From Atractiella rhizophila (Eukaryota), in the NCBI GenBank assembly GCA_021432655.1, contig MU271181.1:263189-309835 (forward strand): a stretch of 46,647 nt of DNA, written 5' to 3'. Of this stretch, positions 1 to 46,389 are shown piece by piece. The notes under the pieces were generated by a model. The model was not told where the DNA came from and ran no database searches. It saw nothing but the letters and a program-made list of their open reading frames with translations. The position numbers and the translations under genes were made by a program. Within the stretch, counting starts at the first letter, position 1. Each line of letters opens with the position of its first letter.

Positions 1-725
1 GCTGTGGTGGGACCATAATGTGGCAACGGGGGGTTAATGGTTCCAGGAAGCAAAGAGTAATGTGAGTTGCGCCCACCTGTCGACTGTCGAAAGACGGTTA
101 TGACAAGTGGATAGCTGATACGCTGCTATGGGTCCCTGGGCATCTGCGCTCCTTGATTGGCTCCAGGGCTATTCCAAGGTATAAGGAGACGAGTGGGAGA
201 TGACAGGAGGTGCGAAGTGATATGAGGGAGGTGGATGAGATCCAACCTGGGGACCTTCTGCATTGTACGATGGAGACGGCGTCAGGTTCGAGCGTTGCGT
301 GCTGAAGGCAAGGCCTTCCATATTGCTTCTGGCGTTGAAGTTCTCTACAAGAAAAACGAAAATGATGAGAATGAGAAGGGAAGGAAAGAGGCAAGCCCGC
401 AATCCATAATCCAATGCTCAGCTGAACCAAGTGACAATATAGTTTGGACAATCAACCTGGTAATTCATGCATCAATGTTATCTGTTCATCGGGTCTGGCT
501 CGATCAGCACGGGTGGTTTGTTTAGGCAAGATCGCCTCTTGTTCGGCTGCAGGTCCCTGTTCCCGTCATGTTGCCACCTCCCCTTCCTCGCTTCAAGCAG
601 TTTGACTCTGCACAGTGCTTCCAATCATCAAAAGTTCTTCTCTGAATGTTGACGAGAATAAAGCCATCAGACAAATGGGAAGGGATAGTGTGACGAGCAT
701 CTATGAGGCTGTCTTTGCTCAATTG

Positions 726-886
726 GGCAGTCGCCACAGGGGTCGGAGTTGGTCGGCGATAAAACTGGTTGACCAGTTTTGACCTGCTTTTTGGCTTGCA
801 AATTTTCTCAAAATTGAAGCGCAAAACCATTTTTCGCTTGCGGCCTCCGGCCGCTTGGGCAAACCCCTGGGGGCGACTAGTTTGCC
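726..886 (+). repeat. Multi-hairpin dispersed element, copy 1
   Basis: Ends GGCAGTCGCCACAGGGGT...ACCCCTGGGGGCGACTAGTTTGCC. Internal AAAACTGGT-TG-ACCAGTTTT (761-780), AATTTT-CTC-AAAATT and GCGGCC-TCC-GGCCGC. Aligns by eye to 19737-19900, 23542-23676 and 37217-37373. Ends 75 bp before the ATG at 962. Confidence 0.9.
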
Positions 887-961: not shown

Positions 962-3365
962 ATGTCAACTCACGGCGAAGTCTACGAGTTACTTTTTCAA
1001 ATAGTGCAACCTGGTGATGAAAATCACATTGTCAGCAAAACGTCTGTTATCGAATTTCCTGCCCATAAAACAGTGGCAGCGTTAGAGAAGGCGATGCGTC
1101 AGGAGTTTCCGGAATATCTCAGCGACCACAGATTTGACTTGTGGATGCTGGACCCTAAGCTGCCCAGCAAGGAGCGACAACTTCTGAAGACAATCAAGTT
1201 CCCCTCCGAAAGATTGAGAGAACTTGACCCTGCGTTTCGGCTAGCAGATTATTGGCAACAAGCGCCCGCCAGTGGATTTCTACATTTCGTGGTAGAGTTA
1301 CGTCTGCCTTCTCAAGAACGCCCACCTTCTCGTAAGGATTCCTTGGTGATCCTTCTTCCACTGACCTGTTGCCTAGCCTGGCATTATCATGGTAGCCTGG
1401 ATGAGTATCAATCCCGCGCACGTATCAAGACATCGACAAGAGGATCATTCTTGCCTCACTCTCTTCTTGCAGAAAACCGAATCTTCCCGGTCGACGTCCC
1501 GCGCACTAGACCGGACAACTCCCATGAAGATGGCAACATTGCAGCGCTCCGCCAAGCGAAAGCCACGTTAGGCAAACCGTTCCTGCTCCCCGTTGATCCT
1601 GACCCCGCTATGCTCGCAATCGGAACATCGCTTCAAAATGAGTTTTTCGGAGGTGCTGGGACCCATGGCCGAAGAGCAACGAAGGCAGAGCTTAGCCATT
1701 ATCATCATGTTGCTGTGGTCGAGGTACCTATGGAGAGATTTTTAGACGGCAAACAGGCGTATGTCAACTGGACCTACTTGATGCCTGTCGCGAGCGAGCT
1801 TTCCTGCCAGAGATATGGATTGATCAAAGTGTCCGAATTCGTCGCGTAAGCTCTCGCTCCTTATCGTTGACCGCTGCCAACGTAACCTATTGTTCAGGGA
1901 TAAGTCATGGCCAATTTGTCTCTATCCTTGCACTCCTGAATCGTCAAACAACCCCGCCATGCAGTACAAATATCAGCCTCGCAGCGACTTTCAGATTCGA
2001 CAGCATGGGATCCCCCAGGTTCTTGTCGAAATACAATCAAAAAAGACAGGAGAAGATCGGATTCGGATGTTACTGCAAGGTGCAGCCGTTGTCAGAGTTG
2101 TGCAACATGGAATCAAAAGTGATGCAGCGAAACCACATATTCTTATCGCTTACTATATCACCAACGAATTGGTCGCCCAGCAATATATATTGTGCGTTGA
2201 TCCAAACACAGTCAGTCAATTTTCTAGCTTGTCACCTGTTGATTCTGATTTGTCACAGGAAGATGTGTTTTACTCAGAGAACACGTTTGATCTCACCCGT
2301 CGTGAGAATGCATTCAAGTTTCTGCTTGAGTTATACAACTGCCGATTGGTGATCGACTCGGACGAAAGCGCAATGAAAGCCACAGCGAAGCGCATCGAAG
2401 AGAGCTTGAACTCTTTGGACCAGCTTCCGTCATTCACGGGCGGTGATACTTCGAATAAGAAACGCAAAACTAGTCATGGAAACGAGGGGACCGAAGGACA
2501 CGAAGGGAACAAAGGCGGGCTTCTTGCGGTCCCGCAACTGCAATCTTACCTCAGTAAGTTGGGATATCTATTGGAGTCGCCTAGGGCTGAAGGTTCCTGG
2601 AGTCCATTGGAAAATGTGCGTATTTCAAGTTATCGAATTCATCATCCTGAAGTATGACAATAGCTTTCACATCCGTCAGTGGTGGCGGCCTGCGCGCGAG
2701 ACGGAACCCGCGTGATGATCAAGCGCGCATGGAGCCTCAGGGAAGCTCAAGTTCAACAATGTCTGGCGAGTACCTCCGATGTTAGAAACCACACGATGAA
2801 CACTCGCGAAATTTTAGAATTCCAGCAAGACACGCTACTTGTTCTTCCTCGTGGGATTCCTTTGCCGTCCTTACGTCTGGATACACCGCTCGCAATATTC
2901 TTGGCAGAACAACTGATCGAAGGCGTGGGTTTCATGCACAGTCATGGATTTGTACATCTGGACTTGAAACCGAACAATCTCGTCGTCATCTCCAACCTCC
3001 TTAAAATCATCGATTTTGGATTGTCTCGCAAAGTCGCCCGCGATACTGTCTTGAAAGGATATCGCGGAACTCGACCATGGGTGGCCCCTGAACTTGGAAC
3101 TGAAGACGGACCAGAGCCAGCATTTCATCCCATCCCCGCTGATCTATGGGCTGTTGGTCGGATTATTTCTCGTTTCTTCGGTCCATTCCTTCCGCCGGGG
3201 CACTATCTTTTTCATCTTGCATCTCAGTTGATGTCAAAGGATCCTCAATCGCGGCCGCGACTGGACGATTTTAATGGGAGACCAAAGAAAAGAACATTGG
3301 AATCATTAGGCCTGGAATGCGGATGGAGCAATGGCGTCAAACGGAGACATCTCATTCCCGGTTAA
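962..3365 (+). CDS. Crinkler(CRN)-like protein: ubiquitin-like N-terminal header + PD-(D/E)xK-like nuclease + Ser/Thr kinase-like domain, ~731 aa, intact
   Basis: Exons 962-1331, 1377-1830, 1898-2210, 2259-2615, 2664-3365 splice at GT..AG into one frame. The 45- and 48-nt introns 1 and 3 are in-frame and are inferred from the paralogue. CRN-like TVAALEKA..FDLWML..LADYW..LHFVV; nuclease-like PRSDF..LVEIQS..DRIRMLLQ; kinase MIK, HLDLKPNN, DFG, GTRPWVAPE, DLWAVG; basic NLS-like SNKKRK and KRRH. Confidence 0.85.
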
Positions 3366-4399
3366 GTTCGGTGCTCAGTTGGTGAAGTGGCAGCAACAGC
3401 ACATATGAATAGCAGTGTTCGAATTGCTATTAAAACTGCCATTGTCATTGTTAGCGGAACGCATACGCCTCCCTACAAATGAACGTACACGCAATCTCAT
3501 CCTTACCTCTAAAAGCCATCTATTCTTGGCATGAGTCATAAAACACACTTTTGAGCATCCATACCTCCCTCAGCAGGCACATTGAAACGAAATGAATTAC
3601 ACCATCTTACTGAAGATGCTTGTGCCTTTCTGAAGCCGTGAGGAAATTTTGTTCTGAAGGGGGTAAAAAAATGTGTTTCATACTGGACTCAAACCCTCAT
3701 AACAGTCACAACAGGGTTCAAGGGCATGATGAGGAATGCAGATCGCAGTGCCACTAGAGCATATAGGAGTGGCGAAGCAGTGGAGGCAAAAGAACAATTG
3801 ATGAGCAGTGAATATGTGAAGAATAGTCAGTGTCGTTATCGCTCATGACTGAGAGGTTGACTCTTGCCTGAACTTAAATGAATTTTGGAGAGGAGCACAT
3901 CCTGAAAGTACCCAGACCCAGGCCAGTGAGTGTGGAGGGGTAAGATAGGTGTAGTGAATTTATGTGAGTTGGTCTGGTACATTCCATGAGTTCCATCATT
4001 ACAGAGGAAGGATAGGATCGACAGACATTGCCTACGCATGAAGAACATCATGTCGTCCAATATCCATGCCACCTGCCCATCATCAAGTTGACATCAACAA
4101 ACACCATTACATCCATTACAGAATGGAAAATGGAGGAGGTAAGAGAGACATACTGTCAGGACCTGAGCACTCACAAATTTCCATCTCCAATAATGAACCA
4201 GGGCAGTATCAGTATGGTCGAGAACGGCGGAGATTGATCATGGTAGTCTACGAGATATTGGGGTACTTGCTTGAGGTTTGAGCGCAAGCTGCGCTGTGGG
4301 AAACCTGAGGAAAGGTGAAGTGGTTACCATGACATTCTGTAAGAGAAATTTGTGGTCAAAAGGGCGGCGACAGACCTAGTACGGTAATCATCCATGTTA

Positions 4400-16805: not shown

Positions 16806-19011
16806 TCAGTTAGCATGAGTTTCAAAGGATTGAGAAGAACACACCAGCTTCTTCCTTCTCTTTCCTCTTTGCTTCCCTTGCATTAGCTTTCTCCACTTTT
16901 TCTCATTCCTTCTCCACTTTCTTCTGCACCGTCTCCACTTTCTTCCTCTCTCCTTCCTTTGCTTCTCCTCCGCTGCTTTTTCAACCACTAACATTTTCTC
17001 CCAGGCATCTGAGCCACCCAACAATCGAGCTGTAGTAGTCAATTCAGTCTTCTTGGCAGATTTTGTCTTCGAAGCAACCGTGTGACGCAACTGCCCAATC
17101 TCCATGTCCATCATCACAACTGATGTCCTCAACCTCCCCTCTTCAAACTGTGTCCTCACATGTGCGCTATCCAAAGCTGACAAGGCTCCATAGAGCAGCC
17201 TGGAGTCGCTTTTGACGATAGCTGGATGATCTTACCGTGTTGATCACCGAAGACCGTACGATGTTTTTTTGGGTAGAACTGAGCCGGATTGACTGGGGTG
17301 TGCAGGGTTACTGTTAGAGAGCTCCGAGCTGGGGGATCAGTCAGTGGAGGTTGTGCCGCACTGGGTGCTGGAATGCTGGCTTGAGGTTCGGATCGATGTA
17401 GGGGGCAGGCGGAAGTGTAACAGGAGTAGGTGCTTGTTCGTAGGGGAGACAGGTTGTTGGGTCAATGAGATAGAATCCATGCTCAATTGTGGGAGGTTCC
17501 TCTGGATTGGATGGGTGATCAGAGTCGTCATTGTTGTTAGAATGGCTGGGTGAGCTGGTGAGGGCAAGTTCAAGGTCCGGAGGAATACAATCTGGCAACG
17601 GTGTTCTAGACGAGGTTTGACGGGCAGGAGCAAAGTCAGCTTCCGCAAAGTGATTTCGACTCACAAATTCCCTTCCGGAGTGGTCATGGACTAAGAGTCC
17701 GGTAGCTGCCCAAGCACTGCCAATTGTTGAAGCCTTCATTCCTTCATCACGACATCGTAAGTACCTCTTGATAAGATTTCTCTTGGAGACTTCATGACCA
17801 TCCTCCAACATATCATCTGTTACGTCGCTCCAAGCTTTTCCAATTGGCCCAAACACACCAACCTCGAGAGGTTGCAATTTGTGGGTTGTATGGGGAGGGG
17901 GACAAATTATATTGACAATGTTGCGAAGGTTTTCCCAGACATAGCGAATAATGAGTGCCGATGCATGGGAACCATGGCCGTCAAGGATGAGAAGACAAGG
18001 ACGCTTTGGATCAGGTGGACTTTTGACAAATGGACGTAAACCAGTGTGAACCATAGATAGCCTAGCACCTCATTCGTCCATCCATTCTCTGATATCCCGA
18101 CACTAGAGTGATATGCTGAGCATACATAAAAGCACTTAAGCTGAAGACCAAAAAGGCGTACAAAATGACATTCTTTTGTGCTTCCGTCAAACCCTCTAGC
18201 CAGTTCTTCATAAAACGCTTGCCAGAGAAGATAAAAGCGGGGGCAGAGAATTCCCATCTGCAGTGACACATTCAATAAGTGTAACCAGCTTGTCTGACTT
18301 TGCCCGCTGTACCGATTTCCTCTCAGTGGCACCGATAACACGCCGTTCCCCCAACTTTCGACCTCCTCCCAGTTGCAATCCCTTCTCATCCATATTTGCA
18401 ACATCACACCATCTTATCTTATGCTTGTGCATTGTCTCCTCAATCAAATCAAAATAAGAATTCAGATTTGTCCGATTAAATGCCTTCGCATGTTTGGGAT
18501 CCAAGGGATTTGCTCTGAACGTCTTGATTTCGACTTTCTTCCGTTTCATGAAACTGGGATACCACTTCTTCCCTGGTACTCTTCCAATAATCTTCTTGAC
18601 CACTAAGTTCATGCCTCTCCGGTGAAGAGGTAGGCCAGAATCACCAACCCATCAAAGCCAGCTGACAAGGCAATCTTCTTCTCCAGCACTGAGCAGCCTC
18701 TGATGTTCATGACTTTCCGTGCGACTTAAGCCTCCTTGACACAGCAGCCTTAGTGTACCATAATTCATGTAAACAATCCCTCCCTTGCCATTTAAATAGG
18801 AGTACTGGTGCAATAGCTCTCTGAAGGAGATGATACACTTCGGGTTATTTGTCCTCTTAGCCTCCTCTCTCCTTTCCCAATAAATATTTACTGCCTCAAC
18901 AAAATCCTTTTCTTTCTGGGCAGCTACCTCCTGAGCCTCCTGTCGGACCTTTCTTCTTCCAACAAGGCATTTGGAGGATGGTGGGAAGTGTGAGGAAAAG
19001 ACGGAAGGCAC
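16806..19011 (-). pseudogene. DDE_1 (pogo/Fot1) transposase pseudogene
   Basis: CENP-B HTH-like LLSAGEEDCLVSWL*W..GKKWYPSF, plus NMDEKG, SENGWTN, LLILDGHGSH and PPHTTHKLQPLEVGVFGP. In-frame TGA at 18652-18654 and frameshifts near 18240 and 18055. Confidence 0.9.
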
Positions 19012-19736
19012 GTCATGTCAAAGAAGACAATCAAAGACAATCAAACAGAGTGCACGGTTGTTCCGCTTGCATGTGACCCAAAAGTGTGTCATGCTGCACA
19101 CTTTAACTCTAATTTGTGTATTTTGCACACTTTGCCTCCTCAAGTTGAATTGCCTTCAACAGGCTGTCTTTCAGCAAATTGCAGTCAGATCATTAAGGGT
19201 GTTTAGAATATGAAAGACTTGAACTAAGTCTTGAGATTGCAAAGAAAAAATCCAGTAATTGCATATAGGTAGTTGAAAAACACAGATTTTATGAAACACT
19301 ACATTTTCATTGATATCTCTGAGAGATTACAAGCAATGGTCTCGCCGTTTGGAGACAAAATCTGCACACAGGTGCGAAGATCTTGAATCCAGAATATCTA
19401 AGGACTGGAGCGAATTTTGAGGGACGTCAATATGTGATGTTAAGGATCTGGGTCTGTTAAGGTTCTGGTGTCAACAGAGTAGTGAGTAAATAATATTTAT
19501 TTGTTGTAGCCGAGCTAGGTCGTTCTCTTTTCGTATCTCACACTCTCACCAACAAACTACCTTTGAGAACCGATCGTGTTCCTTGATTCTACATGTGCTG
19601 GCAATTAGAGTCGGATACGCATAAGTAACGAGTTTCACAACATTCAGATGTTGAAATTCTCTCACTTTGTCGGAGGGTGGGGCGGTGCAGAGGAAGGGAA
19701 GGTGCGCTGCGACCGTCTCCAGGAGTCAGGAGGACA

Positions 19737-19900
19737 GCAGACCCGTCGCCCAAGGGGTCGGAGTTGGTCGGCGATAAAACTGGTCGACCAGTTTTGACCT
19801 GCTTTTTGGCTGGAAATTTTCTCAAAATTGAAGGCCAAAACCATTTTTCGCTTGCGGCCTCCGGCCTCTTGCGCAAACCCCTGGGGGCGACCAGTTTGCC
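19737..19900 (+). repeat. Multi-hairpin dispersed element, copy 2
   Basis: GCAGACCCGTCGCCCAAGGGGT...ACCCCTGGGGGCGACCAGTTTGCC with perfect palindrome AAAACTGGTCGACCAGTTTT (19776-19795). Confidence 0.9.
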
Positions 19901-21499: not shown

Positions 21500-23450
21500 T
21501 GCATGAGCCTTCCCAAGCTTGAGCTTTCAGGACCAGGATTTGCCGGTACAACAGAGGAGTGGGTGAGAGCAAAGTTGAAGGAACTACAAAAGCTAATGGC
21601 TAACGCATCCAGTGTCGAATCTTCAGTAGGGAGTTGGCCTTCAGTTGTGGGTGGAGAAGAGTTGGTCAGAGACCTGTTGGCTTCTGGAATGAGCTGGATA
21701 CTTTTTGTTGCAGTGTATGACAGATTGGGAGCAAGTGACTCCAGAAGCCATCATTGGGGAAAGGATGGCTCTAGTCATACAGTTTTCAACACTAGGGGAT
21801 TCGCTTCATCCAGGATCCAAGGCGTTGACAAGCTTCTGTGACGCTCATCCGCTTGTCTACCCTTTGTCTACATAGCCGATAGAGGAAGTCGTAACCTGTA
21901 CATCACTTCAACACAATGCAGCAATGTATCCATGAGATCTGTCATACATTCACGAGAAGTACTCTTGGGCAAATCCTTGCACTTGGGAACACACCACTCA
22001 AGACGTGTGGCGAGAGGGACTTCCGAGTTTTCAGGGTCGAAAGGAAGGGCATTGATCATACAGGAGAGGATGATGAGGCCTAGATCCCATGCGTCACATT
22101 TATCGGTATAATCACCAAATTATTTCACGATGACCTCTGGAGCCGACCTTTACCGATCCATTATCAGCAATGGGCTCAAAAAAGGGAGGAAGGAGAGGCG
22201 TACCAAGTAGGTGTTTCACGAGTCATCCACAACTCACTTTGCTGGACCATCTTCCCAAGCCAAAGTCTGCAATCTTCATGACAGGGTTCATCCCATGAGT
22301 AATGAGGTGTTATCAGGCTTAAGATCCCGATGAACAATCTTTTTGGCATGAAAGGCAACGATGGCTGGGAAGAGCATCATAGCAATCTTCCTCGCTTCTT
22401 CCTCCGATAAACCCCCACGTTTTGAGACGTAAGTAAGGAGGTCTCCACCATCGATGTACTCGAGGACTAGACAAAGGTCATTGTCGTCTCCAAAGCATGC
22501 GATAAGCTTGACACCGTTTGGATGGTTAATCCCGTTTAGGACCGTCAGCTCTTTCTCAAACATTCCTTTGTTCGCTTCAGACTTCAGTCTCGACTTCTGT
22601 ATGTGCTTCATGGCTCGTGTAATGCTCGTCCTACGCTCGATCACGCGACATACCTTCACAAAAGAGCTCCTGTCACAATGAAAGTAAATGTGAGACAACA
22701 TTGCGAGAAAGGGCTAGAAAGAGAGCTGCGGAAATTCTGAGAGCCTCAATGAAATCATACTTCCTCCGAACACCTCCGCAGAATGCGAAAGGATCCTGAG
22801 CGAGGGGTTTATTCGGGTCTTGCCAATGAAAACCTACATCATAAATGGTCAATACCTGCAGCAACTGGGAAAGAAAGGGGTCCACCAAGTCCTGAATCCG
22901 AGTGGCTTCCCACTTTAACCTATGTGCTCATCAGCAAAAGTCATCCGTACAATAATAACATGCACCATATCTCCATGCTTGAGTATCGTAAGTATTCCTT
23001 TCCCGACTTTCTTCCCTCTTATATAGGTCCCATTCATCAACGTATCCTTCAACTAAACGTCCTGTAGATTGGGATCTCTCCAAATCTCGCAATGGATATT
23101 AGAAATAATCTTCGCGTCCAAGCGAAGGTGATTCTTTCTCGCTCTTCCAATAGTAAGGATTACTTCCGGAGGCTGGTTGAAAGGGATGGGGCAAAGAGAA
23201 GCACTGGTGGGCATCATCCTATCCGCCATATCACAAGCACCGCCTGAGTAAAGGCACTTGGAGAACTAAGCTGGATTGACGGCACACACTCCCCAACACC
23301 CTATTAATGCCTTCCAATGTTAGCTGTCTGTCGTGTTAAGGGAAGAAAGGTGAGCAAACATGGACCTGGAGGTAAAGGCTTCAGATAGCCCATGATCGCA
23401 TCTTCATCCCTCTGCATCGCCGGTTGAGCCACCTCAAGCTCTTCCTGCAT
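21500..23450 (-). pseudogene. FHA-domain Ser/Thr kinase (Chk2/Rad53/Cds1-like) pseudogene
   Basis: FHA at ~22960-23170: LTIGRARKNHLRLDAKIISNIHCEIW..V*LKDTLMNGTYIRGKKVGKG..LKHGD (in-frame TAG). Kinase RAMKHIQK..EKELTVL..LVLEYIDGGDL..HRDLKPDN..KIADFGL carries two 1-nt deletions and a degenerate Gly loop. Outer limits approximate. Confidence 0.85.
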
Positions 23451-23541: not shown

Positions 23542-23676
23542 CGTCGCCCCAAGGGGTCAGAGTTGGTCGGCGATAAAACTGGTGACCAGTTTTGACCTAG
23601 CTGCAAATGTTCTCGAGATTGCAAAACCATTTTTCATTTTCCGCTTGTGGCAAACCCCTGGGGCGACGAGTCTGCC
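23542..23676 (+). repeat. Multi-hairpin dispersed element, copy 3 (shortened hairpins)
   Basis: CGTCGCCCCAAGGGGT...ACCCCTGGGGCGACGAGTCTGCC with AAAACTGGT-G-ACCAGTTTT. The third hairpin is reduced to CCGC-TT-GTGG. Confidence 0.9.
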
Positions 23677-26259: not shown

Positions 26260-28258
26260 TTAGAGCGATAATGCAGGACAATGGTTGGACCAACCAGAAA
26301 GCCGATTCCTCCTTGAGGTTGCTTCACCTAGTCCCAGACAGACTTTTGCCTTCTCCTCCTCAAAGTTCATCTCCGTCTCATGCCCCGAAACTCACGCATG
26401 TGAAAAGTCGATGAGATAGTCTTTCTGCGATCCGAAATAGAAGTTTTGAATTCGAATATCGCCGTGAAGCACCCCCTTTTCATGCACCCTCTTCAGCGCC
26501 ACAAAGGCTTTTTGTCTAGTCACCACACATCAAATATAGCTCCATAGCCTAGCACAATCCTACCTCGCTTCCAGCTGCACCACGTTGATGTCCTCCTTGA
26601 ATTCTCCTGCCAGTATTTCCATCACAATGATCCCAAATCTCTCCTCCCTCCCAAATCTTTCCTCCACTCCTTCAAAGCTGCCATAAACTTTAGGAATGTA
26701 CTCTCCCTGCAGACCGGAAAGCCGCTCATACACCTCTACTTCTCGTCGAACATAGTCCATATTAGTTTGACTAGGATGTTCCATCTTTCGCGAACCGTCA
26801 AAGTACTTAACGGCCACCTTTCTTTTCCCCCAGATAGCCTTGAAAACCGTCGCGAATGCTCCGGAGCCTAGTTCGTCTGTGATTTCCAATAATTCCTCAC
26901 AGCGCTCAGACTAGAGAAATACATCAGTGTAAAGAACTGTTGATTCCAAGGGTCGAAAGGAATGAATTACAATGAAGTTATAATGGGCTTTTTATACCTT
27001 AAGGAACTCGGTAAAATGAGAGAAACGGCAAAGGGGAAAGAAAACTAGAGCCACAATGACAGTGGCACGAATGCAGCTTAAAACGGTACCAAACTCTGAC
27101 AAGAACCTGACGGGACAGTGACGAACTGGTGTCCCGATTGCGTAAACTGGGTGACGCTTAGAGTTGAGGACAGACTTGGTAAACACCACATCCAAATCCG
27201 GCTAAATTGTGGTTGACGACTGTGTAGCACAATTAGACCACTTACTCGTGTCCCTGCTCCTTGGTTGGCTATCGTGCCTTTCTTCCCATCATGATTGCGA
27301 GCCGGAAGGGTGGTTATAGAAGATCCAGTCTGCGTTACTGACTGAGACACTTGAGTGGGGGAGGAAGGGTGATGGGAGACTAGAGGAAGATCCAAATTGT
27401 CCAAACACATCCCAACCATCGTCTTGATAACTCAATGCCCAACGACATCATACTGGTCGGAACACAATAGATAAAATCCATTGGGCGTAATGACTCGTTG
27501 GAAAAACAGGAAGGATTTCCCCCCGAAGAGTAGGCCGAAAGGCGCACCGTTTATAGCCATCTTTTTCCCGAGCTTGCAGATAATGAGGAAGTGGCAGAAG
27601 GATGGAATTAACATACTTTAGTGACTATAGAACGTGCTCCTTCTTCTGTTCCATCACCAGCAGAGTACAAATCAGTCCCGGCTCCGTTTTCATTCTTTCC
27701 CATGGCGACAATCTCATCCCCCAAGGTAGCTGAGACGGTGATACCTTTGAGCTCGATTTGGATTTTTGTGGTCTGGTTCAGCATGAGCCTTCCGTCACTC
27801 CGGGTACCGAGGCTGGTGGGATTGCGTTCAAGGTGCAGAACAAGGAAGGTTGCATCTTTGTATGCCGCATTTACAGCGTCAACCTAAGAGGTGAACGCAT
27901 GTGTATTAGCGATTGTTTCGTCCCTAATAGGCTTATTAGCGATATCGTCTAGATAGACAGATAATTTAATTTTCAGCTGATCCGATGCCTGTTTAGAGCC
28001 CAAAATTGTGTCAGCTGCTTGGCAGACAGTCTCAAGGAAGTTTGCTTGATAGCGGATGTGGTAGGGTCTATGGATGGCATAGGTTGACCTGAAGTTTTCA
28101 GGGCTAGTGGAGCGCGTTGGATCGATTACAGTCCGAAGTTCCGTACCGACAGGAAGTATCGCGTCGTCGAGCAGATTGACAATGGTGATAGACATTTCCA
28201 ATCTGAGTCCAGTTTCCAGTTTCTTCGATGAATTGTCACTCGCTTCATGGACATTCAT
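26260..28258 (-). pseudogene. PD-(D/E)xK nuclease + protein-kinase fusion gene, inactivated by in-frame stops
   Basis: TRSDGRLML..IQIELKG nuclease motif. Kinase LGSGAFATVF..VAVK..RREVEVYERL..IPKVYG..IIVMEI..HEKGVLHGDIRIQN..LIDFSHA. Introns splice in frame. Stops TAG 27884, TGA 27432, TAA 26992, TGA 26392. Confidence 0.8.
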
Positions 28259-28451: not shown

Positions 28452-28471
28452 GGCGCCCTCTAGGGGTTTGC
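28452..28471 (-). repeat. Terminal fragment of the multi-hairpin element
   Basis: Reverse complement GCAAACCCCTAGAGGGCGCC versus element end GCAAACCCCTGGGGGCGAC. Confidence 0.5.
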
Positions 28472-28513
28472 ACTTGCTCGAAGGATGCCAATCTGCCGTT
28501 TGCGTATGGAACA

Positions 28514-30926
28514 ATGTCAGCTCGCGAAGAAGCCTACGAGTTACTTTTTCAAATACTGCAGCCTGGTGATGAAAATCTTCTCGTAGGAGAAACTTCTGCT
28601 GTTGAATTTCCTTCCAACAAAACAGTGGCATCGTTGAAGAATGCCATTCGAGGGGAGTTTTGTGAAATTCTGGGTAGAGGAGAGTTTAGTTTGTGGAAGC
28701 TGGACCCAAAGCTATCAGACAAGGAGGAAGATCTGAAGACTATCAAGTTCCCCTGCGAAGGATTGGAAAAATTCGACCTAAAGTTGCTGCTCTCGGAGCA
28801 CTGGCCAAACCCCCCCCCGTCTGGACATCTACATTTTCTGATCGAGTTACTCCCACCCCCAACGTTAGGTATGGAAGCCATTCCATCAATTGCTCCATCT
28901 GATTTGTTTGTTAGACTGGCACCGTCACGACTTACTGGATCATTACCAATCCCTGGCGAGCTTCGTGACGCGCGAGGCTGGATCATTCAAACCCTTTGAT
29001 ATCGTCGCAGAAAACAAGATCCTTGAGGTAAACAACTCCGAAGACCACGACATCGTAGAGGCTTTCCGCTTAGTGAAGGTCAAGTTGGGACGACTATTCC
29101 ATAACCCTCTGAACCCTGACGCGGTTACGAACGCCGTCGCTACATCGCTGCAAAACAATTTTTTCGTAAGAAGGCCGCCGAATCAAGACCGAAAAGCTTC
29201 AGCAGCAGAGCTTCTTCATTACCATCAGGCTGCTACTTTACCTCCAAATCTGAATCGATTTTTGGATAAAAAGGAGACCTACTTTAATTGGACCTACATG
29301 ATGCCTGTCGCGAGAGAGCTCTCCCAACGCCGACATGGATCACAGGAGGTGTCCGATTTCATTGCGTCCGTAAACATACCTTGTCGTTGATTTATGTTGC
29401 TGCTGATATGCCGTATTGTTCAGGAATAAAAACTGGTCGATTCATCTTTATCCTTACACCCCTAACGTCCCCGCCACCGCTGACTCGCCGGCAATTCCCA
29501 GGAAACAATACAAATACAAGCCTCGTAGCGACTTTCAGATTCTACGACATGGGATCCCTCAAGTTCTCGTTGAAGTACAATCTGCCGACAACTCGGAACA
29601 AGATCGTTATCGAATGTTGCTGCAAGCTGGAGCTGTCGTTAGGGTTGTGCACCATGCGATTGGAAGAGATGTAGCGAATCTCCACGTTCTTATTGCCTAC
29701 TATATCAACAACGCGTTGGAGGCGATACAGTACTTATTGTGTATTGACTCAGATTTGGTGCGTAGATCTTCGTGGCATTTACCATATCAACTCTGACATT
29801 TTATAGGAAACCGTGAAATACTCCGAGTACAAGTTTGATCTGTGCAAGCCAGAAGAAGCCATCCAGTTTCTGCTTGAGCTATACAACTGCCCAGATGTGA
29901 TCGATTCGAACGATGGCAAGATCAAACCTAAGGCAATGAAAATCAAAGATAGCTTGGGTAAGGATGACTTCCCGTCATTCATCGGCGCCTCGACTTCGAA
30001 TAAGAAACGCAAAACCACTCATGGAGGGGATGGAAACGAGAGAAGCGATGGCGGACTACTTGCGGTTCCTCATGCGGAAGCAAACCTCCGTAAATTGGGA
30101 TATCAGCTGGAGTCCCGTCGAACTAAAACTGCATGGAGTCTGTTGGGAGATGTGCGTATTTACGTCTTTTGATCGCTGTGCTGATGAGTGTAACCAGACG
30201 TTGACGCCCTCCGTTGTGGCTGCCACTGCCCGCGATGGCGCACAGGTGATGATCAAACGAGCATGGAGCGCCAGGGAAGCTCATATCCATCAGCTCCTCG
30301 CCGGTATATCCGATGCCAAGAATCACACAATGGACGTTCGTGAGGTCTTGCGATACCAGGACTCCTCACTGCTTGTACTTCCCCGTGGGACACCTCTCCC
30401 TTCTTTATGTCTGAATCAGTCTCTGGCACTATCTTTGGCGCAACAACTTGTGGACGGCGTGGGATTCATGCATGCTCGCGGGCTTGTTCACCTGGATCTC
30501 AAGCCCAATAACCTCGTCGCCATCTCTAATGTCCTTAAGATCATTGATTTCGGATTGTCTCGCAAAGTCGGCGACGACACAATCTTGAAAGGATACAGAG
30601 GGACTCAATCTTGGGTGGCTCCTGAACTTGGAACAAAGGACGGACCACAGCGAGGATTTCGCCCCATCCCCGCTGATCTCTGGGCTGTTGGTCTCATCAT
30701 TTCTCGTTTCTTTGGCCCATCCCTTCCTCCCGGCCACTATCTTTTTAATCTTGCGGCTCGGTTAACGTCAACGGACCCTCAATCAAGACCACGACTGGAC
30801 AAATTTAATTGGGGACCAAGGAAAAGAGCTTTGGACTCAGCCGAGCTTGGACGTAATAATTTGGGTATGCAAAGTGAAGTAGTTGAAAGTGAAAGTGCTA
30901 AACGTAGGCATCTCATTCGTTGTTAA
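28514..30926 (+). CDS. Second CRN-like ubiquitin-like + nuclease + kinase protein, ~732 aa, intact
   Basis: Exons 28514-28868, 28915-29350, 29424-29757, 29807-30151, 30198-30926 splice in frame, with the same four intron positions and phases as 962-3365. Motifs LWKLDP..LHFLI, PRSDF..LVEVQS..DRYRMLLQ, HLDLKPNN, DFG, WVAPE. Confidence 0.85.
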
Positions 30927-31300
30927 ATTGGTCATGTGCAAGTTGTGTGGTAGCATAGCACAAGAAGTGGTAGTCCGGAATAACATGTATGAATACCAGT
31001 CTTCTCAACCCCTCTTATATAAAACAAAAGATGCAGTTTACATTGCACAGAGCACACAAACCTCCTTGCACATGGCTCCCTACACACTTTCACACCTTTG
31101 TGCTGGCAATCACGAATCAATTGATCACTTACACTTCCTCATACTCACTACTCACTGGTTCGTCACATCCATCGACGGCTGTGAATTCTCCAGTCGGAGC
31201 AGCATACGGGTCCTATTTGAAGAAAGAGGTGCTGGATATACGTGATGATACAATTTCAAAGGCAAGGGCGTGGTGATGAGTGCAAGGTAGTAAGAATGGG

Positions 31301-31385
31301 GGCAAACTCGTCGCGTCGAGGGTTTTGCGCTCAATTTCGGTGAAATTTGCGCCGCATCCCCCTGCAAACACAAAAGTGGTCGACC
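31301..31385 (-). repeat. Shortened diverged copy of the multi-hairpin element
   Basis: Reverse complement GGTCGACCACTTTTG...GCAAATTTCACCGAAATTGAGCGCAAAACC...GCGACGAGTTTGCC. Confidence 0.75.
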
Positions 31386-32594: not shown

Positions 32595-33238
32595 AAGCAT
32601 CATTCCAGTGTGAGTGAGATCCCCAACAGAAAGGTCCAGGGATCCTGAACGGTAGCGAGACCAGATATTGGTATGATGGAATGATGCCACTGTAACAAGC
32701 AGTCTCTGAATGGGCTTTTTGGGTCATTGCAAGGCTATTTGCGTGTACTCTGTCGTTGTGCGGATTGGAAGGTTTAGAGGCTCGTAGGCGACTAGGCGAT
32801 ATGCCGTCATCCTAGGGGCGTGATACACATGGGTAACAGTAATGATGCCCAAGAAGCTGAGCTATAAGTTTGCAAAAGCGACAACTGCACTTGCTTTGAT
32901 GACCTGTGCAGCCGTTAGCTTTTGCACAGCCACTGAGTTTCTTCTTACCCGATCAGTGCACACACAAACGCCTGCTTTTCGGGTTCGAGTTCGTGCTCCT
33001 GTACATAAGTTCGATTTCAATTTGTTGTATTTCTATCTCCAGATTCCTCATGTAAAGTCACTCTGTGAGACGAGGAAACAGCAGGGAGAGATCTTCGATA
33101 TCATGAACAAAACGTCAAGGACGATTATCCGTTGGAGAAAGGTAACGAGAGGAACAATTTATTCGATTGGTTGTTGGATTCGGTACAGAACAAGACTCGC
33201 GGACCAAAAAGAAGCGATAAGGGCCAGATTAGGTATTC

Positions 33239-34108
33239 TTAGAGCTGTGCCAACAACCCAAGTTAGCGTTAGTCCACATAGATTGCTTGAGGAGGAGGAA
33301 GAGGAAGGAGGACGCACGTTCTCGAGTTGGGCGACGACCTCCTCCAACTCCTTCTTCGAATCCAAATACTTCTGTTGGCTCTCTTCATACTTCTTCTCCC
33401 AGTTATCCCTCTCCGCTTCAATCCTTTGAACCTGTCTCTCAAAGTGTTCCGCCTTCACATCCACCTGTCTTAACCTAATCATCCATCACATCAATACCAT
33501 GTTCCAAGAGTTGAGATAGGAAAGGACGCACTTCTCAGTGGTCTCCCTCAAATTCTTCTCCGCATTGTCCAGCTCGCTCTCCAAAAGCGCGATCTTCCTC
33601 TGCAAGTTCTCATTCGTCGATTTATGAGTCTCCTCATCGTCCTTGGCCTGTTTAGCGTCCGAAAGCTTCGCTTCAGCTTTATCGAGGTCGGTTTCGAGGT
33701 TGGAGACTTTGTGTTGGAGCGAAACGATCTCTTGATCCTTCTGCATCAATTCCTACAACCACCATCCCATCCATCCCATCCCTTCACATCAGCTCAAATC
33801 CCATCATAACACCCGACTCCGACACAATGACAAATTGAGGGCAGGACGTACCTGATCTTGCTTCTTCACCTTCGACTCTGCATCCTCTGCGCGAGCCAGG
33901 TACCGATCCGCTTCTTCCCGGATCTCGTTCATTCTCTAACCAATTTCGTCCAGCACAACGAGCGCACCATCCAGTCCAATCAGTGTCTTTCTTCTTCCGA
34001 CGTGCTATCAGGAGACGTACAACTTTCAGCCTGTCCTGTTCCGATCAAAGCTCACAATCAGCCTTTCCTTGTACCAACCCATAGAAGGAGAGAACATACC
34101 AAAGCCAT
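33239..34108 (-). CDS. TPM1: Tropomyosin (fungal Tpm1/Cdc8 type), 163 aa
   Basis: Exons 34108-34100, 34035-34021, 33935-33852, 33752-33532, 33474-33318, 33244-33239 give MALDRLKVRMNEIREEAD..KDQEIVSLQHK..LLESELDNAEKNLRETTEKLRQVDVKAEHFERQV..ERDNWEKKYEE..KELEEVVAQLENL. Confidence 0.93.
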
Positions 34109-36560: not shown

Positions 36561-37216
36561 ACCGAGCCCACGACATCCTGGGCAGTTTTCTTTCAACAAT
36601 CTGATACCCATACTCTCCACTCCTTGAGCTCACTCCATACCTGCAATACCTTCAAACCGTTGGGCAACTTCCCACCCCTGTACAGGGAACAGTCTTACAG
36701 TCTATCAACAGCCAAGTGGAGTGTTTTGTGGGCTACAACACTGAATCCTGAATGAGGCAAGACAGGCGGGAAAGGGGGAACGATTGCAACATCGGACCCG
36801 TCTGATCGACATCAAAAAGATCAAGAGCGGCCTCTACCTCAAATTAAGAGCGTCGCTTCCATCATGGCAACAACAGCAGGAGGTTATATCTTACACGATC
36901 AAGCCCCCGAAGGAAGGACAGTTTGCGTCTGCTCTGACTGCGTCGATCCATCAGACTCTAGTCGAGGTCTCCCTCAAATGCGAAAAACAGAATATGAGCA
37001 TCAACGCCAAGTTGTTTGTGCCATCATCCACCTTTGCTAGGGGCTTAGCCCCTTGGACCCCAGCCCCATGTCTAGTTTGTTGTGGAGTTTGGGACATTTT
37101 TGCGATGATTCTGGCAGGATTAGGGGGAAGTGGGAAGCCGCCCGCTGGCAGCAAACCTAGCTGAGTGGCTGCGCAAGTAACAGCTCCTGGTTGTCAGATT
37201 TGGGACAGGATTTGGA

Positions 37217-37373
37217 GCAGACCCGTCGCCCAAGGAGTCGGAGTTGGTCGGCGCTCAAACTGGTAGACCAGTTTTGACCTGCTTTTGCTGCAAATTTTTC
37301 AAAATTGAAGCGCAAAACTTGGCAAGACCATTTTTCGCTTTGCAGCCGGACCCTTGGGGGCGACCAGTTTGCC
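37217..37373 (+). repeat. Multi-hairpin dispersed element, copy 4
   Basis: GCAGACCCGTCGCCCAAGGAGTC...GACCCTTGGGGGCGACCAGTTTGCC with AAACTGGT-AG-ACCAGTTT and GCAAATTTTTCAAAATTGAAGCGCAAAAC. Confidence 0.9.
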
Positions 37374-43029: not shown

Positions 43030-46000
43030 ACTTGTTTACCTTCTTTCCCGGCAGCTCTAGAGTTTTCAAATTCGTTTTTATCAGCGCTTTGTTCAGCTTA
43101 GGGCTTAACGAATTGGCGCCTTCCCTTCTGCAAGTAATTCCCGGTAAGTCTCTTCACCAACCGCCCCCGCCTCTCAAAGCATTCTGATCTGGTTTCGGAA
43201 AGAATGGTTTTCCATTGGCAATCACAACATTACGATTCCCTCCTTGCCTCCGCTTTCCATCCACGCCAACTTGTCGCAGCCTTTTGCTGGCACAGATTCC
43301 CTCCGCACACCTGCTACGGGATTAACCCCTTTCTTGAGTGTGGGGTTGTCACCCAAGGTCGTGGTACCGATTCCCGTGATCCACATTCCCAACAGTTACG
43401 AGGTGTATCCCACCGATGTCGTTTCCTTGACATATGACTGTGCATCGGTGGCGCCTACATACGTCTCAGACCCAAATGGTGACAATGCTCAAGAAGTGTA
43501 CGATGGAGGAGCGACTTACGGAGCGGGTGAATTTTTCGGGTTTGGGAAAGCTCCTTTCTACCCCAATAGTGAGTTATTGTATCTCACTTGCCCTTCCACA
43601 GGATTGACTGTTATCCAACTTGTTATAGGTGCAGATTTTCTCTCATCTATTTTCAAAACTCGCCCCTGACAACACCTCCATCATTCCTTCTTTCGATGGT
43701 GTTATAATGGTTGCCGTTCAGACGGCTCCATTGAACGCTATTTTTGCTGAAACCTCATGGTTCAACTTTTCTTCTGTTCCTCAGTTCTCGATCCCTCCCT
43801 CCTGGCGCACGTATCAAGAGGAGTGGCTACTCATGGGGAACGGCCCGATCGCGAAAGAAACGTCAATACTCTTATGTCTTCCTCAGTTCTCCGTGCAATC
43901 TTACTCTGTCGCCGTCGACTCAGCTCAAGTGGGGGGGCAGCTGGAGAATCCACTTCCCTATCGAGTCGGGAACATTGATGAGACTCAACTGAAAATTGCT
44001 CTGTCCGACTCTCTGCACGAGCTTGCACGCACCGCCCCTTCCATTTTTACGACGGAGTTTGTGGATCAAGAACGCAAAGCCACAAATCTTTCAAATTCTA
44101 CTCTCGTTGACACTCCTGTCGACGCGAATGCCCTCTCCGAGAGCATTACCGACATGGTCCGCGGCGCACTATCTGCATATCTGACTGGCGGTCCGTTTGG
44201 TACGACGGTAATCCAAAGCCATGGTTACAGGATGGGTCTCGTGCTGCGTGCACAGAACGAATTTCTTTGGATCGTGGCTGCTTCCTTTTTCTGTCTGGCT
44301 GTAGCCGGCGGACTCGTGCTTGTTCTCCAGCATCGAGAGAAGCGCCTTGAGAGACAGCTTTCTATTGCAGGAGTCTTGCGGCTCGTGCGTTGGGATAAGG
44401 AGACGTCTCTGGTTGGGGAAAAATGGCTTAATGGACGGGGGCTGATGGAGTTTGCAACCGACCTGACGACTGGATGCGGAATGACTGATGAAGAGGAGGA
44501 GAAGGTGCATTTTGCTTTCCGAAATTCGATGGTGCGAATAGCAGACTTTCCAGCTGCAAGCGGAACGGTGCCGACTGTCCGCTTGCAGATGACGCCGGCG
44601 CCAATGAGGAAATTCAAGATAGAAGGAAGAAGCTTGAGGAAGCTCCTTGGGTTTATCACACCGGTGGTGGGAGGAGCGTTCATCGCCTTTGGAGCATACG
44701 CATATACCCACGACGTGATTATTCCCGAAGATATCGGAGATGTTCGACCGGTGCTCCTAGGAACAACTTTCACCGTCGTCATTGGGTCGTGGAGAACTCT
44801 GGCTCTGGGGGGAACCAGGAGCTCCATTCGTGAAGTGCGATCTGAGGTACGTCTTCATTACGGAAGCTTTAAGGACGCCCGTATAGCGATATTCGGCTAA
44901 TATTTCTGTTATCTAGGAATGGACACGTTTGTCAAGTCGGGCAACCACGCAGGGGATAATGGCGCAAGAAAATGTCAGAACCGCAATCGGGGACGTGTCG
45001 ACAAATACTACGTCAACTGTTGATCAACTTCGACGTTCCGTCCTGTTTAAACCTCACTCCCTCATATCCAAGTATTATCGGCTCGCAGTGCTTTCATTCC
45101 TCATCATGTCTGTTTGCTCCATCACTTCTCAAGGAGCGATCCAACTACGCCGTCGCGTAGTATCCATTGGTTCAAGCGAACCAGTTGCTATCAATGCATA
45201 CTCGACAAACGTTAGCAGCCTATACACTATTTTGAGCGCATCTCGAGAACCATGGAGCACAAGTCAAGGCATAGGCAACAGTGATTTAGATTTTGCCGTC
45301 AATGGCTGGCGCCAGGAATTTCTTATCTCGAGTGGCGTTGGTTATATTGAGGAAGAGCTAGATATCGCAGTGGCGGTCCAAATGCCTCCAAGCAACGCGG
45401 AAGGATACTTTCTTCTGCAGCCTGCCGGGACGGAAGACTTAAAGGGTATCAGCATTCGCTTCTTGACTGACCTCGGAGTGTGGAAAATGTCTTGCGAATG
45501 GGCTGCTCCAAGACTTCAACCGTGGAGCGCGGACATCAATAGTTCCTCCTTTGTCTCCATCCAGCTCATGGAGCACAATTTACAAGGGCTCGTAGCGGTT
45601 CCTTCTCCGTTTTCCTGGTTTACTCCCCTTCAGATGCCTCAACGCATGGACAACGAAGAGTTTATCTCCAGCGGCCTCTTCGCCTGGACGCTTTTCGCAG
45701 GCTCACGGATCAATGTTGATAATGCGCCTTTCTCCGATCTTTCAGCTGAATGGCGAGATTGGCTCACTAGCGAGATTTCTCAGTATAATCCGGATTATGG
45801 ATCGTTTTACGAGATTCCCACAAGACTGACGACGCTTGTTTGCGGACCGAATATCAAGATTTTCTATAACTCTGAAGTGACAATCTATAACAACACTGCT
45901 TCTATCCGCAAGAGGAACCGTGAATCAGAGGAGGTCGGAAACCTCGAATTCGGACAGCTAGCCTTCCAAGTTTATGCTATGGGATCCATGCTGGGCGAAT

Positions 46001-46389
46001 CAGAACTAGGTCGTTTCAGTGACAACTTACTTATCGGCTCTCGCGCTGGCCATGTAGCCCTCTCCAACTCATCTGACGCGAATTCTATCGTGCTTCGAAC
46101 GGGAGCTGAAGCGGCACGGTCGTTGAACAGTATCCTGACATCGGAGCTCAAATTAGTTGCAACAGTGAATATTCACAATGTCACCACCCTGTCTGCTCCA
46201 GTGGGAGAACGCTATGTAGTCGACGTCTCTCTTCCTCAGCTCGTGGCCTCTGGCGTGATGTTCGCAATACTTTCACTACTTTTACTTGTCTTCCAAGTCA
46301 GAACGAGGTTGAGAAAGTTCACTCTTGCTGGAATATTACTGGCAGGAGGCACGGACTTGCAGGACTGGAATAGAATGACTGACGATTGA
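43030..46389 (+). CDS. Large multi-pass membrane protein with two homologous halves; 5' part apparently disrupted
   Basis: Long ORFs 43244-43669, 43629-44900 and 44929-46389. Intron ~44846-44917 joins RSE/EWTRL. Hydrophobic TM segments and many N-x-S/T sites. Frame change near 43630-43660. Start not resolved. Confidence 0.65.

What the first reader, a model, noticed from the sequence alone, without database searches (positions are those of the whole stretch)
962..3365. Intact Crinkler-type ubiquitin-like + nuclease + kinase gene: candidate single-gene toxin-antidote or selfish effector
Seen: complete spliced ORF with CRN-like header, nuclease-like core, full kinase catalytic motifs, NLS-like basic clusters and no signal peptide. 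Established: CRN-type proteins combine ubiquitin-like headers with REase and kinase domains. Podospora SPOK spore killers pair a PD-(D/E)xK nuclease (killing) with a kinase (resistance) in one protein. Inference: this could be an analogous nuclear toxin/self-immunity, meiotic-drive or host-directed effector family in a basidiomycete. It stays intact while nearly all its neighbours have decayed.
Basis: partly seen in the sequence, partly recalled or inferred. Interest (0 to 1): 0.72.

Follow-up and report, generated by a model that had tools for sequence, protein, structure and literature searches.

The report
Expanded fungal Crinkler nuclease-kinase gene family
This is a real, expressed gene of a root-dwelling fungus that joins a restriction-enzyme-like domain to a protein kinase, a design already known from Crinkler proteins; it is one of dozens of scattered copies, often next to a small repeat, and whether it acts as a self-protecting killer gene is untested.

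Summary
The gene is real: five exons give 736 aa, identical to a deposited Atractiella rhizophila protein, and a public run shows three of four introns spliced. It has a weak Crinkler header, a restriction-endonuclease fold and a protein kinase. This REase+kinase design is a catalogued Crinkler class, and the Spok parallel is already in print. It is not a Spok: different header, no cysteine cluster, no ExK lysine (site reads SD..ExS..DxxR). It is not a lone survivor: 38 family places were examined, six look fully intact, one of them in this window. Both domains are under purifying selection. All 27 named outside relatives are Agaricomycetes, many wood-rotters, which argues against a plant effector. 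New here: copies spread as compact intron-bearing units, and a 165-bp repeat or its end motif lies upstream of most close copies; the repeat also flanks other expanded families. Best reading: a nuclear, kinase-gated nuclease of internal conflict or defence. Drive is possible but unshown. The scan earlier noted the same design in a rotifer, not this sequence.

The parts
728..886 (+). Repeat A: copy of a 165-bp dispersed repeat with imperfect terminal inverted repeats; its 3' end lies 76 bp before the ATG
   Evidence: (46 matches in G000, a lower bound); no target-site duplication in 28 of 31 copies
859..876 (+). End motif of repeat A (AAACCC-Y-N-R-GGGG core), also found 20-120 bp upstream of 13 of 18 family genes with a mapped start
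962..1331 (+). Exon 1: Crinkler-type (ubiquitin-like) header; Pfam PF20147 match at 1049-1297, below cut-off
1332..1376 (+). Intron 1 (45 nt, GT..AG); header swaps between subfamilies map around here
   Evidence: (joint 1331>1377)
1377..1845 (+). Exon 2: variable linker and first helices of the REase-fold domain
1846..1897 (+). Intron 2 (52 nt, GT..AG)
   Evidence: loose end at 1846
1898..2210 (+). Exon 3: REase core with D310 (1986-1988), E324 (2028-2030), Q326, S327, D333 (2055-2057), R336 (2064-2066)
2211..2258 (+). Intron 3 (48 nt, in frame; no RNA joint listed)
2259..2615 (+). Exon 4: end of the REase domain (to about 2381) and linker with basic cluster KKRK (2457-2468)
2616..2663 (+). 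Intron 4 (48 nt, GT..AG)
   Evidence: joint 2615>2664
2664..3365 (+). Exon 5: protein kinase domain (2667-3272; non-RD, no glycine loop) and basic tail KRRHLI (3339-3356)
3499..3724 (.). Repeat B: a second dispersed repeat (about 226 bp), not shared downstream by the paralogs
   Evidence: 43 matches, a lower bound
28514..30926 (+). Second intact family member (P0006, 737 aa, 59% identical, four introns at matching positions); 96% identical to a copy on contig C25 over window 28489-31284 only
28454..28471 (-). Reversed repeat-A end motif upstream of the second copy
31301..31385 (-). Diverged, inverted repeat-A end 16 bp beyond the 3' boundary of the duplicated unit
   Evidence: weak, E 0.008; 23 of 28 letters

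Best explanation
An intact, transcribed member of the Crinkler (CR) REase+kinase class that stays inside the fungal cell and probably goes to the nucleus. Shown: the three-part anatomy, the fold, expression and splicing, purifying selection on both enzyme domains, and a species-wide birth-and-death expansion from one founder. Inferred: the REase domain acts on nucleic acid through a rearranged site (D310, E324, with D333/R336 on the next helix standing in for the missing lysine); the kinase sets its activity by phosphorylation; and the protein serves as a held-in-check conflict or defence nuclease (against invading DNA or non-self nuclei) rather than a secreted effector. Copies spread passively as compact DNA units with their introns, often breaking at the end of a 165-bp repeat that also sits beside other fast-expanding families, and they swap headers at the end of exon 1.
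For: Fold: model pLDDT 87; 19 of the top 23 structural rows are restriction enzymes or REase-fold nucleases (by title, or by my recall for DrdV, NucC, Can2), best Z 9.9 to 7.4 at rmsd 3.1-4.9 over 117-186 residues; Atlas structure rows include type I HsdR and McrBC clusters, under its naming bar. Site: D310 55, E324 51 (+7 Q), S327 58, D333 59, R336 58 of 65; lysine migration to that helix is a described variant (PMC3424549). dN/dS 0.00-0.37 for REase (13 pairs), 0.06-0.27 for kinase (12 pairs), 0.15-0.62 for header (12 pairs). Seven A. rhizophila proteins form one clade, 100/100. 27 of 30 looked-up relatives are named from Agaricomycetes, 1 from A. rhizophila, 2 unnamed (class and lifestyle from my knowledge). 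The review of CR proteins gives REase+kinase as about one sixth of C-termini, with the kinase thought to regulate the REase, and finds them in free-living eukaryotes. Compact units and mosaics. Repeat link.
Against: No activity, localisation or phenotype was measured. Foldseek found no match at E<=0.001, and the tool warns that Z under 8 can be a common arrangement. The two best structural rows are mitoribosome proteins, which I recall as non-catalytic REase folds. The ExK lysine is absent. The profile match to Uma2 is motif-level only (probability 3-6%; score 23 against a shuffled maximum of 16). A defence role has no direct evidence; it is reached partly by exclusion.
Confidence: 0.5

Rival explanations
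1. A Spok-like single-gene toxin-antidote: the REase kills, the kinase protects carriers, and copies persist because they drive at meiosis or between nuclei of a heterokaryon.
For: Same domain order and spacing as SPOK. Dispersed, compact, lineage-specific copies with many pseudogenes, and a link to a dispersed repeat that recalls wtf genes at LTRs and 5S rDNA (PMC9562144). Both domains conserved; expressed with an intact site. 7 of 8 copies with REase exons and a broken kinase also have an upstream break or a changed site residue.
Against: No lysine at ExK (SPOK3 K240 is needed for killing), no cysteine cluster, ubiquitin-like instead of coiled-coil header, protein-kinase-type instead of ELK-type loop. 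In CRN8 cell death did not need kinase activity and depended on phosphorylated serines. The 7-of-8 pattern is expected from age alone, and the eighth copy (C70) keeps its site. No strain or cross data. Searches listed no title or abstract opening on such a driver in basidiomycetes (listings only).
Confidence: 0.2
2. The REase fold is catalytically dead and works as a DNA- or RNA-binding or sensing module for a signalling kinase.
For: Lysine position variable (Q, D, N, V, A, S); E324 is Q in 7 of 65; two copies carry G at D310, one with an intact kinase; top structural rows are ribosomal proteins; expression without evident harm.
Against: D310, E324, S327, D333 and R336 are conserved in 51-59 of 65 proteins that are mostly only 18-31% identical to the query, the pattern of a metal-binding site; ExS with a basic residue on the helix occurs in Uma2.
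Confidence: 0.15
3. A host-directed Crinkler effector delivered into root cells to act on plant DNA.
For: Crinkler header and nuclear signals; the species is a root endophyte; relatives in Serendipita, Russula and Lactarius; header swapping as in Phytophthora CRNs; precedent RiCRN1.
Against: No hydrophobic signal stretch; relatives in wood and litter decayers such as Wolfiporia, Fomitopsis, Grifola, Lentinula, Steccherinum, Candolleomyces; no in-planta expression shown (root and rhizosphere RNA runs held only 5-8% of the words).
Confidence: 0.1
4. The protein moves its own gene: the REase recognises the near-palindromic repeat-A motif, cuts there, and gene copies are captured at the break (homing-like selfish gene).
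For: Motif upstream of 13 of 18 genes in both orientations; repeat termini facing the unit at 5 of 32 boundary flanks, two with no gap; at least four gains or losses on the header tree.
Against: Repeat A also flanks FunK1 kinases (4 of 37 loci), F-box-like genes (4), a TPR gene and a patatin; no motif at score 10 lies within 1 kb upstream of the seven distant-subfamily copies scanned; 27 of 32 boundary flanks have no repeat terminus; units have no shared ends.
Confidence: 0.05

Closest known systems
Crinkler/RHS-type (CR) proteins, REase + kinase class (Zhang et al. 2016, seen only through PMC5289972 and PMC12693581), e.g. Phytophthora infestans CRN8
   Same: Ubiquitin-like header, REase-fold domain, Ser/Thr-type kinase, nuclear signals, recombination at the end of the header, lineage-specific expansion in repeat-rich DNA.
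   Different: Non-RD kinase (HLD) without a glycine loop, no predicted signal stretch, host is a non-pathogenic basidiomycete, relatives in saprotrophs. Which numbered CR-REase family it belongs to could not be checked; no CRN8 sequence was compared.
Podospora SPOK spore killers (PMC6660238, PMC9972908)
   Same: One polypeptide with N-terminal domain, PD-(D/E)xK-fold domain, disordered linker and kinase; multi-copy and mobile.
   Different: SPOK has a coiled-coil start, a catalytic lysine needed for killing, a Cys/His cluster and an ELK-like kinase; none is present here. Killing and resistance are shown for SPOK, untested here.
Uma2/DUF820 (PF05685) putative endonucleases
   Same: Structural matches 9y1l Z 8.6, 1wdj Z 7.8, 3ot2 Z 7.0; shared P-x4-E-V-x-S motif with an acidic and a basic residue on the next helix.
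   Different: Stand-alone bacterial proteins; profile comparison aligns only 14-19 columns; K-x3-Y there, R-x3-Q here.
Fission-yeast wtf drivers beside LTRs and 5S rDNA (PMC9562144)
   Same: Compact genes dispersed in association with a small dispersed repeat.
   Different: Unrelated proteins; there the repeat flanks up to 87% of genes and drive is shown; here the repeat sits mostly on one side and also serves other families.

Membership tests
CR (Crinkler) REase+kinase class | N-terminal Crinkler/ubiquitin-like header | tested here: met
   PF20147 E 8e-4, below cut-off for this copy, above it for the window paralog and for many family copies; 11 of 62 aligned members match
CR (Crinkler) REase+kinase class | Restriction-endonuclease-fold domain | tested here: met
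CR (Crinkler) REase+kinase class | C-terminal protein kinase with catalytic residues | tested here: met
   glycine loop absent
CR (Crinkler) REase+kinase class | Recombination at the end of the header | tested here: met
   C1029 and C403b join one subfamily's header (90-95% DNA identity) to another's body (92-93%)
CR (Crinkler) REase+kinase class | Assignment to a numbered CR-REase family of Zhang et al. 2016 | not testable with these tools
   paper and its alignments not held
Secreted CRN effectors | Secretion and delivery into host cells | tested here: inconclusive
   no hydrophobic N-terminal stretch, but CR headers may lack classical signal peptides
SPOK | PD-(D/E)xK fold followed by a kinase | tested here: met
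SPOK | Catalytic lysine of the ExK motif | tested here: not met
   Q326; K in 2 of 65
SPOK | Cys/His cluster before the kinase and coiled-coil N-terminus | tested here: not met
   read from the sequence against the description; header is Crinkler-like
SPOK | ELK-like kinase loop | tested here: not met
   HLDLKPNN, DFG, APE; best solved relatives are DAPK, PAK, CIPK protein kinases
SPOK | Sequence homology to SPOK proteins | not tested
   no SPOK sequence was obtained from a tool
SPOK | Killing by the nuclease, resistance by the kinase, distorted segregation | not testable with these tools
   needs bench work; the pseudogene pattern has no power
Uma2/DUF820 | Profile-level homology to PF05685 | tested here: inconclusive
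   no Pfam match; motif-only alignment; structural Z 7.0-8.6
AgaK1 kinases (label recalled from Coprinopsis annotation) | Membership of that kinase group | not tested
   no looked-up relative bore the name; one search listed 4 papers, not read

The most novel reading that the evidence does not exclude
A widespread, uncharacterised basidiomycete family of single-gene nuclease-kinase toxin-antidote elements, the functional counterpart of Spok with a rearranged active site, which in this fungus has spread by duplication at a 165-bp repeat (as wtf genes did at 5S rDNA) and biases which spores or nuclei survive.
Probability: 0.15. Interest if true: 0.8.

Novelty: new member of a known kind. Interest (0 to 1): 0.42.

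Why it matters
The design is known, so the gene alone is not a surprise. What it offers is a tractable test of an open question: whether the many REase+kinase Crinkler proteins of non-pathogenic fungi are self-regulated killers like Spok, defence nucleases or dead scaffolds. Databases label them only as kinases or hypothetical proteins, so the nuclease fold and its unusual SD..ExS..DxxR site are hidden. If the drive reading held, it would be a killer-type driver in basidiomycetes. The 165-bp repeat beside this family, FunK1 kinases and F-box genes points to a shared route by which conflict-type families expand in this genome.

Tried and rejected
Folding the whole protein from six sequences failed (pLDDT 35). 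Foldseek gave no match at E<=0.001; a sequence search of solved structures with exon 3 gave nothing under E 0.5. The profile search looked only at proteins over 1657 aa and returned unrelated kinases. No Rfam match in 8 sources. The gene as an autonomous transposon: rejected, since duplicated units share no common ends. Retroposition: rejected, since copies keep their introns. Repeat A as a classical TSD-making element or an A|T-inserting Helitron: not supported (no duplication in 28 of 31; varied flanking bases); one pair shares the repeat plus about 470 bp of 3' flank from the repeat's 5' end. Motif as a general promoter element: not supported; of 43 exact sites (control 7) 8 lie at 7 family genes, and of 13 other sites fetched 8 lie in repeat A and none by a family gene. 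Motif as specific to this family: weakened. Long-ORF bias beside the repeat showed no side preference. The prediction that kinase-dead copies must first lose the nuclease has no power. A brute-force splice search chose wrong introns on the known gene and was discarded. No model of nuclease and kinase together was obtained, so their contact stays open. RNA runs X4 and X6 laid only 2 contigs each: no evidence of habitat or expression. Horizontal transfer from Agaricomycetes was not tested (no root, few other Pucciniomycotina). PMC12881547 passages held nothing relevant.

Full report
1. The gene. Removing four GT..AG introns from 962-3365 gives one open frame of 736 codons that equals a deposited protein, P0001, which its source names as a hypothetical protein of Atractiella rhizophila on a contig of the same length as the window's. 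That species is described as a root endophyte (PMC6450171, passages). Of 4 runs laid, X1 has exact contigs over the exons, joints at introns 1 and 4 and a loose end matching intron 2. Its library is not on record and reads were laid at 88% likeness, so I take this as expression and splicing of the gene or very close copies, in unknown tissue. Intron 3 was not listed as a joint; the window's second copy has a 49-nt intron with a stop at the matching place.

2. Domains. The header matches Pfam Crinkler weakly (20.5 bits, cut-off 24.6); the paralog in the window passes the cut-off. The kinase has K523, E530, HLD603LKPNN, DFG, APE and D663 but no glycine loop in any of 65 members; its best solved relatives are ordinary protein kinases. 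The middle has no Pfam match. A model of residues 195-444 from a 62-row alignment reached pLDDT 87. Against 48,161 solved chains the top rows were two mitoribosome proteins (Z 9.9, 9.2), DrdV (9.1), an Uma2-type protein (8.6), BpuSI (8.1), TT1808 (7.8), 3ijm (7.7) and EcoRI (7.4); 19 of the top 23 rows are restriction enzymes or REase-fold nucleases, by title or by my recall. Foldseek gave no significant match, though its weak rows lean the same way. The fold is therefore REase-like. The site is not canonical: D310 and E324 sit on the expected strands, but position 326 is K in only 2 of 65, while S327, D333 and R336 are kept in 58-59 of 65. Uma2 proteins show a similar ExS followed by D and K on the helix, and such migration is described (PMC3424549, passages), but the profile comparison aligns only that motif. 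Activity is inferred, not shown.

3. A family, not a lone survivor. Searches of the own genome with three exons gave 82, 21 and 30 matches (lower bounds, and the first includes other kinases). I examined 40 loci, 38 distinct places; some may be assembly duplicates (C1497 and C1803 are 100% alike, C40 and C1497 99%). Six match all five exons without stop or frameshift and keep the kinase residues and D310/E324/D333/R336: the two window genes, C37a, C120, C25 and C1029. Five distant copies are open over the exons that match but four have changed site or kinase residues; the rest are broken, partial or cut by contig ends. dN/dS is 0.00-0.37 in the REase domain (13 pairs) and 0.06-0.27 in the kinase (12 pairs), higher in header and linker. 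Seven A. rhizophila proteins form one clade (100/100) among 59 rows. Of 30 relatives looked up, out of 150 listed, 27 are named from Agaricomycetes, one from A. rhizophila and two are unnamed; by my knowledge they include ectomycorrhizal, endophytic and many wood-decay species.

4. How copies spread. Close pairs share only a compact unit that keeps the introns: C25 and the second window copy are 96% alike from 26 bp before the ATG to about 360 bp after the stop; C3 and C204 96-97% over the gene and short flanks; C258 and C70 99% over 5.1 kb. Units have no common ends. Two copies join the header of one subfamily to the body of another, one with a 75-bp direct repeat around the inserted body, as described for Phytophthora CRNs. 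A 165-bp repeat ends 76 bp before the window gene's ATG. With a profile built from 25 copies that are not next to family genes, 6 of 18 genes with a mapped start have the repeat in the same orientation within 152 bp, against 1 of 69 control segments; 13 of 18 have its end motif within 20-120 bp, two of them reversed, against 0 of 211 farther tiles. Repeat termini face the unit within 50 bp at 5 of 32 boundary flanks, against 4 of 3000 random stretches (I chose the boundaries after seeing some of them, and two of the five belong to one subfamily). The header tree needs at least four gains or losses of the repeat body. Against a family-specific role: beside 37 repeat loci, 46 long frames included FunK1 kinases at 4 loci, F-box-like genes at 4, a TPR gene and a patatin, and seven distant family copies have no motif within 1 kb upstream. 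The repeat most likely marks or helps the duplication of several expanded families; whether it also lends a promoter is open.

5. How it most likely works. Shown: anatomy, fold, expression, selection, dispersal. Inferred: a nuclear protein whose REase domain acts on nucleic acid and whose kinase sets that activity. The review of CR proteins gives this design as about one sixth of C-termini, assigns toxicity to the REase and regulation to the kinase, and finds such proteins in free-living eukaryotes (PMC5289972, passages and section 11). Two tested examples point in different directions: in SPOK the kinase is the antidote (PMC6660238, passages and section 17; PMC9972908, passages), in CRN8 killing did not need kinase activity (PMC3426532, passages). 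I put 0.5 on an internal, kinase-gated conflict or defence nuclease, 0.2 on a Spok-like driver, 0.15 on a dead scaffold, 0.1 on a plant effector and 0.05 on self-mobilisation at the motif. The pseudogene pattern cannot separate these: 7 of 8 kinase-broken copies with REase exons also have an upstream break or changed site, as age alone would give, and the exception has a near-twin that differs by nine single-base indels, several in homopolymer runs.

6. Known and new. It meets the CR REase+kinase features that I could test and fails three SPOK features. The link between Spok and this architecture is in print (PMC12693581, passages), and selfish spread of a Crinkler-like gene has been reported in fish (PMC12957317, abstract and outline). 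Zhang et al. 2016 was not available, so I cannot say whether this basidiomycete family or its motif is already in its alignments or supplements. Searches listed no paper on this family in Atractiella or on a basidiomycete driver of this kind (listings only; most subscription papers are outside the library). The wtf comparison rests on PMC9562144 (passages). Earlier scan notes: none for this sequence; one rotifer case of the same design.

7. Verdict. Real and well formed, a new member of a known kind; the toxin-antidote reading is a fair, untested hypothesis; the repeat association is a modest new observation. Interest 0.42.

Noticed in passing
window 728-886, 19736-19900, 23542-23676, 37216-37373; L052-L080, L173, L177-L183: Repeat A (165 bp, imperfect terminal inverted repeats, no target-site duplication in 28 of 31) sits in the 5' region of FunK1 kinases, F-box-like, TPR and patatin genes as well as this family; its class and mobilising enzyme are unknown.
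   Followed up: partly
L056:1031-1666 and L058:1483-2128: Repeat A plus about 470 bp of its 3' flank is duplicated (98%) with the boundary at the repeat's 5' end, as in read-through capture.
   Followed up: partly
window 3499-3724: Repeat B (about 226 bp, at least 43 matches) lies 134 bp after the stop and within about 1 kb of repeat A at several other places (C176, C1568, C103, C653).
   Followed up: no
L044:2639-6333 (C1029): A distant-subfamily gene body sits inside a close-subfamily gene after exon 1, between 75-bp direct repeats.
   Followed up: partly
L186:4057-7347 (C401): Tandem 1.5-kb duplication (96%) of linker and REase exons; one copy has no kinase behind it, the other ends at a gap.
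   Followed up: no
L142-L154 (C418, C40, C475, C113, C391, C46, C885): Other Crinkler headers, several in tandem arrays about 400 bp apart, score far higher on PF20147 and seem to belong to other CR families of this genome.
   Followed up: no
window 17344-18069 (-): DDE_1 transposase match (E 1e-7).
   Followed up: no
window 22291-22713 (-) and 26563-26910 (-): Two further protein-kinase pieces that did not match this family.
   Followed up: no
window 33162-33485 (-): Tropomyosin exon (E 3e-16).
   Followed up: no
window 43629-44900 and 44917-46389 (+): Long open frames (423 and 490 aa) without Pfam match; the second resembles unnamed fungal clusters (score 0.97, DUF3176 in 24% of one cluster).
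   Followed up: partly
window 200-750: Run X1 has exact contigs upstream of and into repeat A, so this stretch may be transcribed too; no gene was identified there.
   Followed up: no
P0001-P0006, P0008 in the tree: The A. rhizophila clade sits among Agaricomycete proteins (nearest named: Paramarasmius, 98/88), which would fit horizontal transfer; unrooted and thinly sampled.
   Followed up: partly
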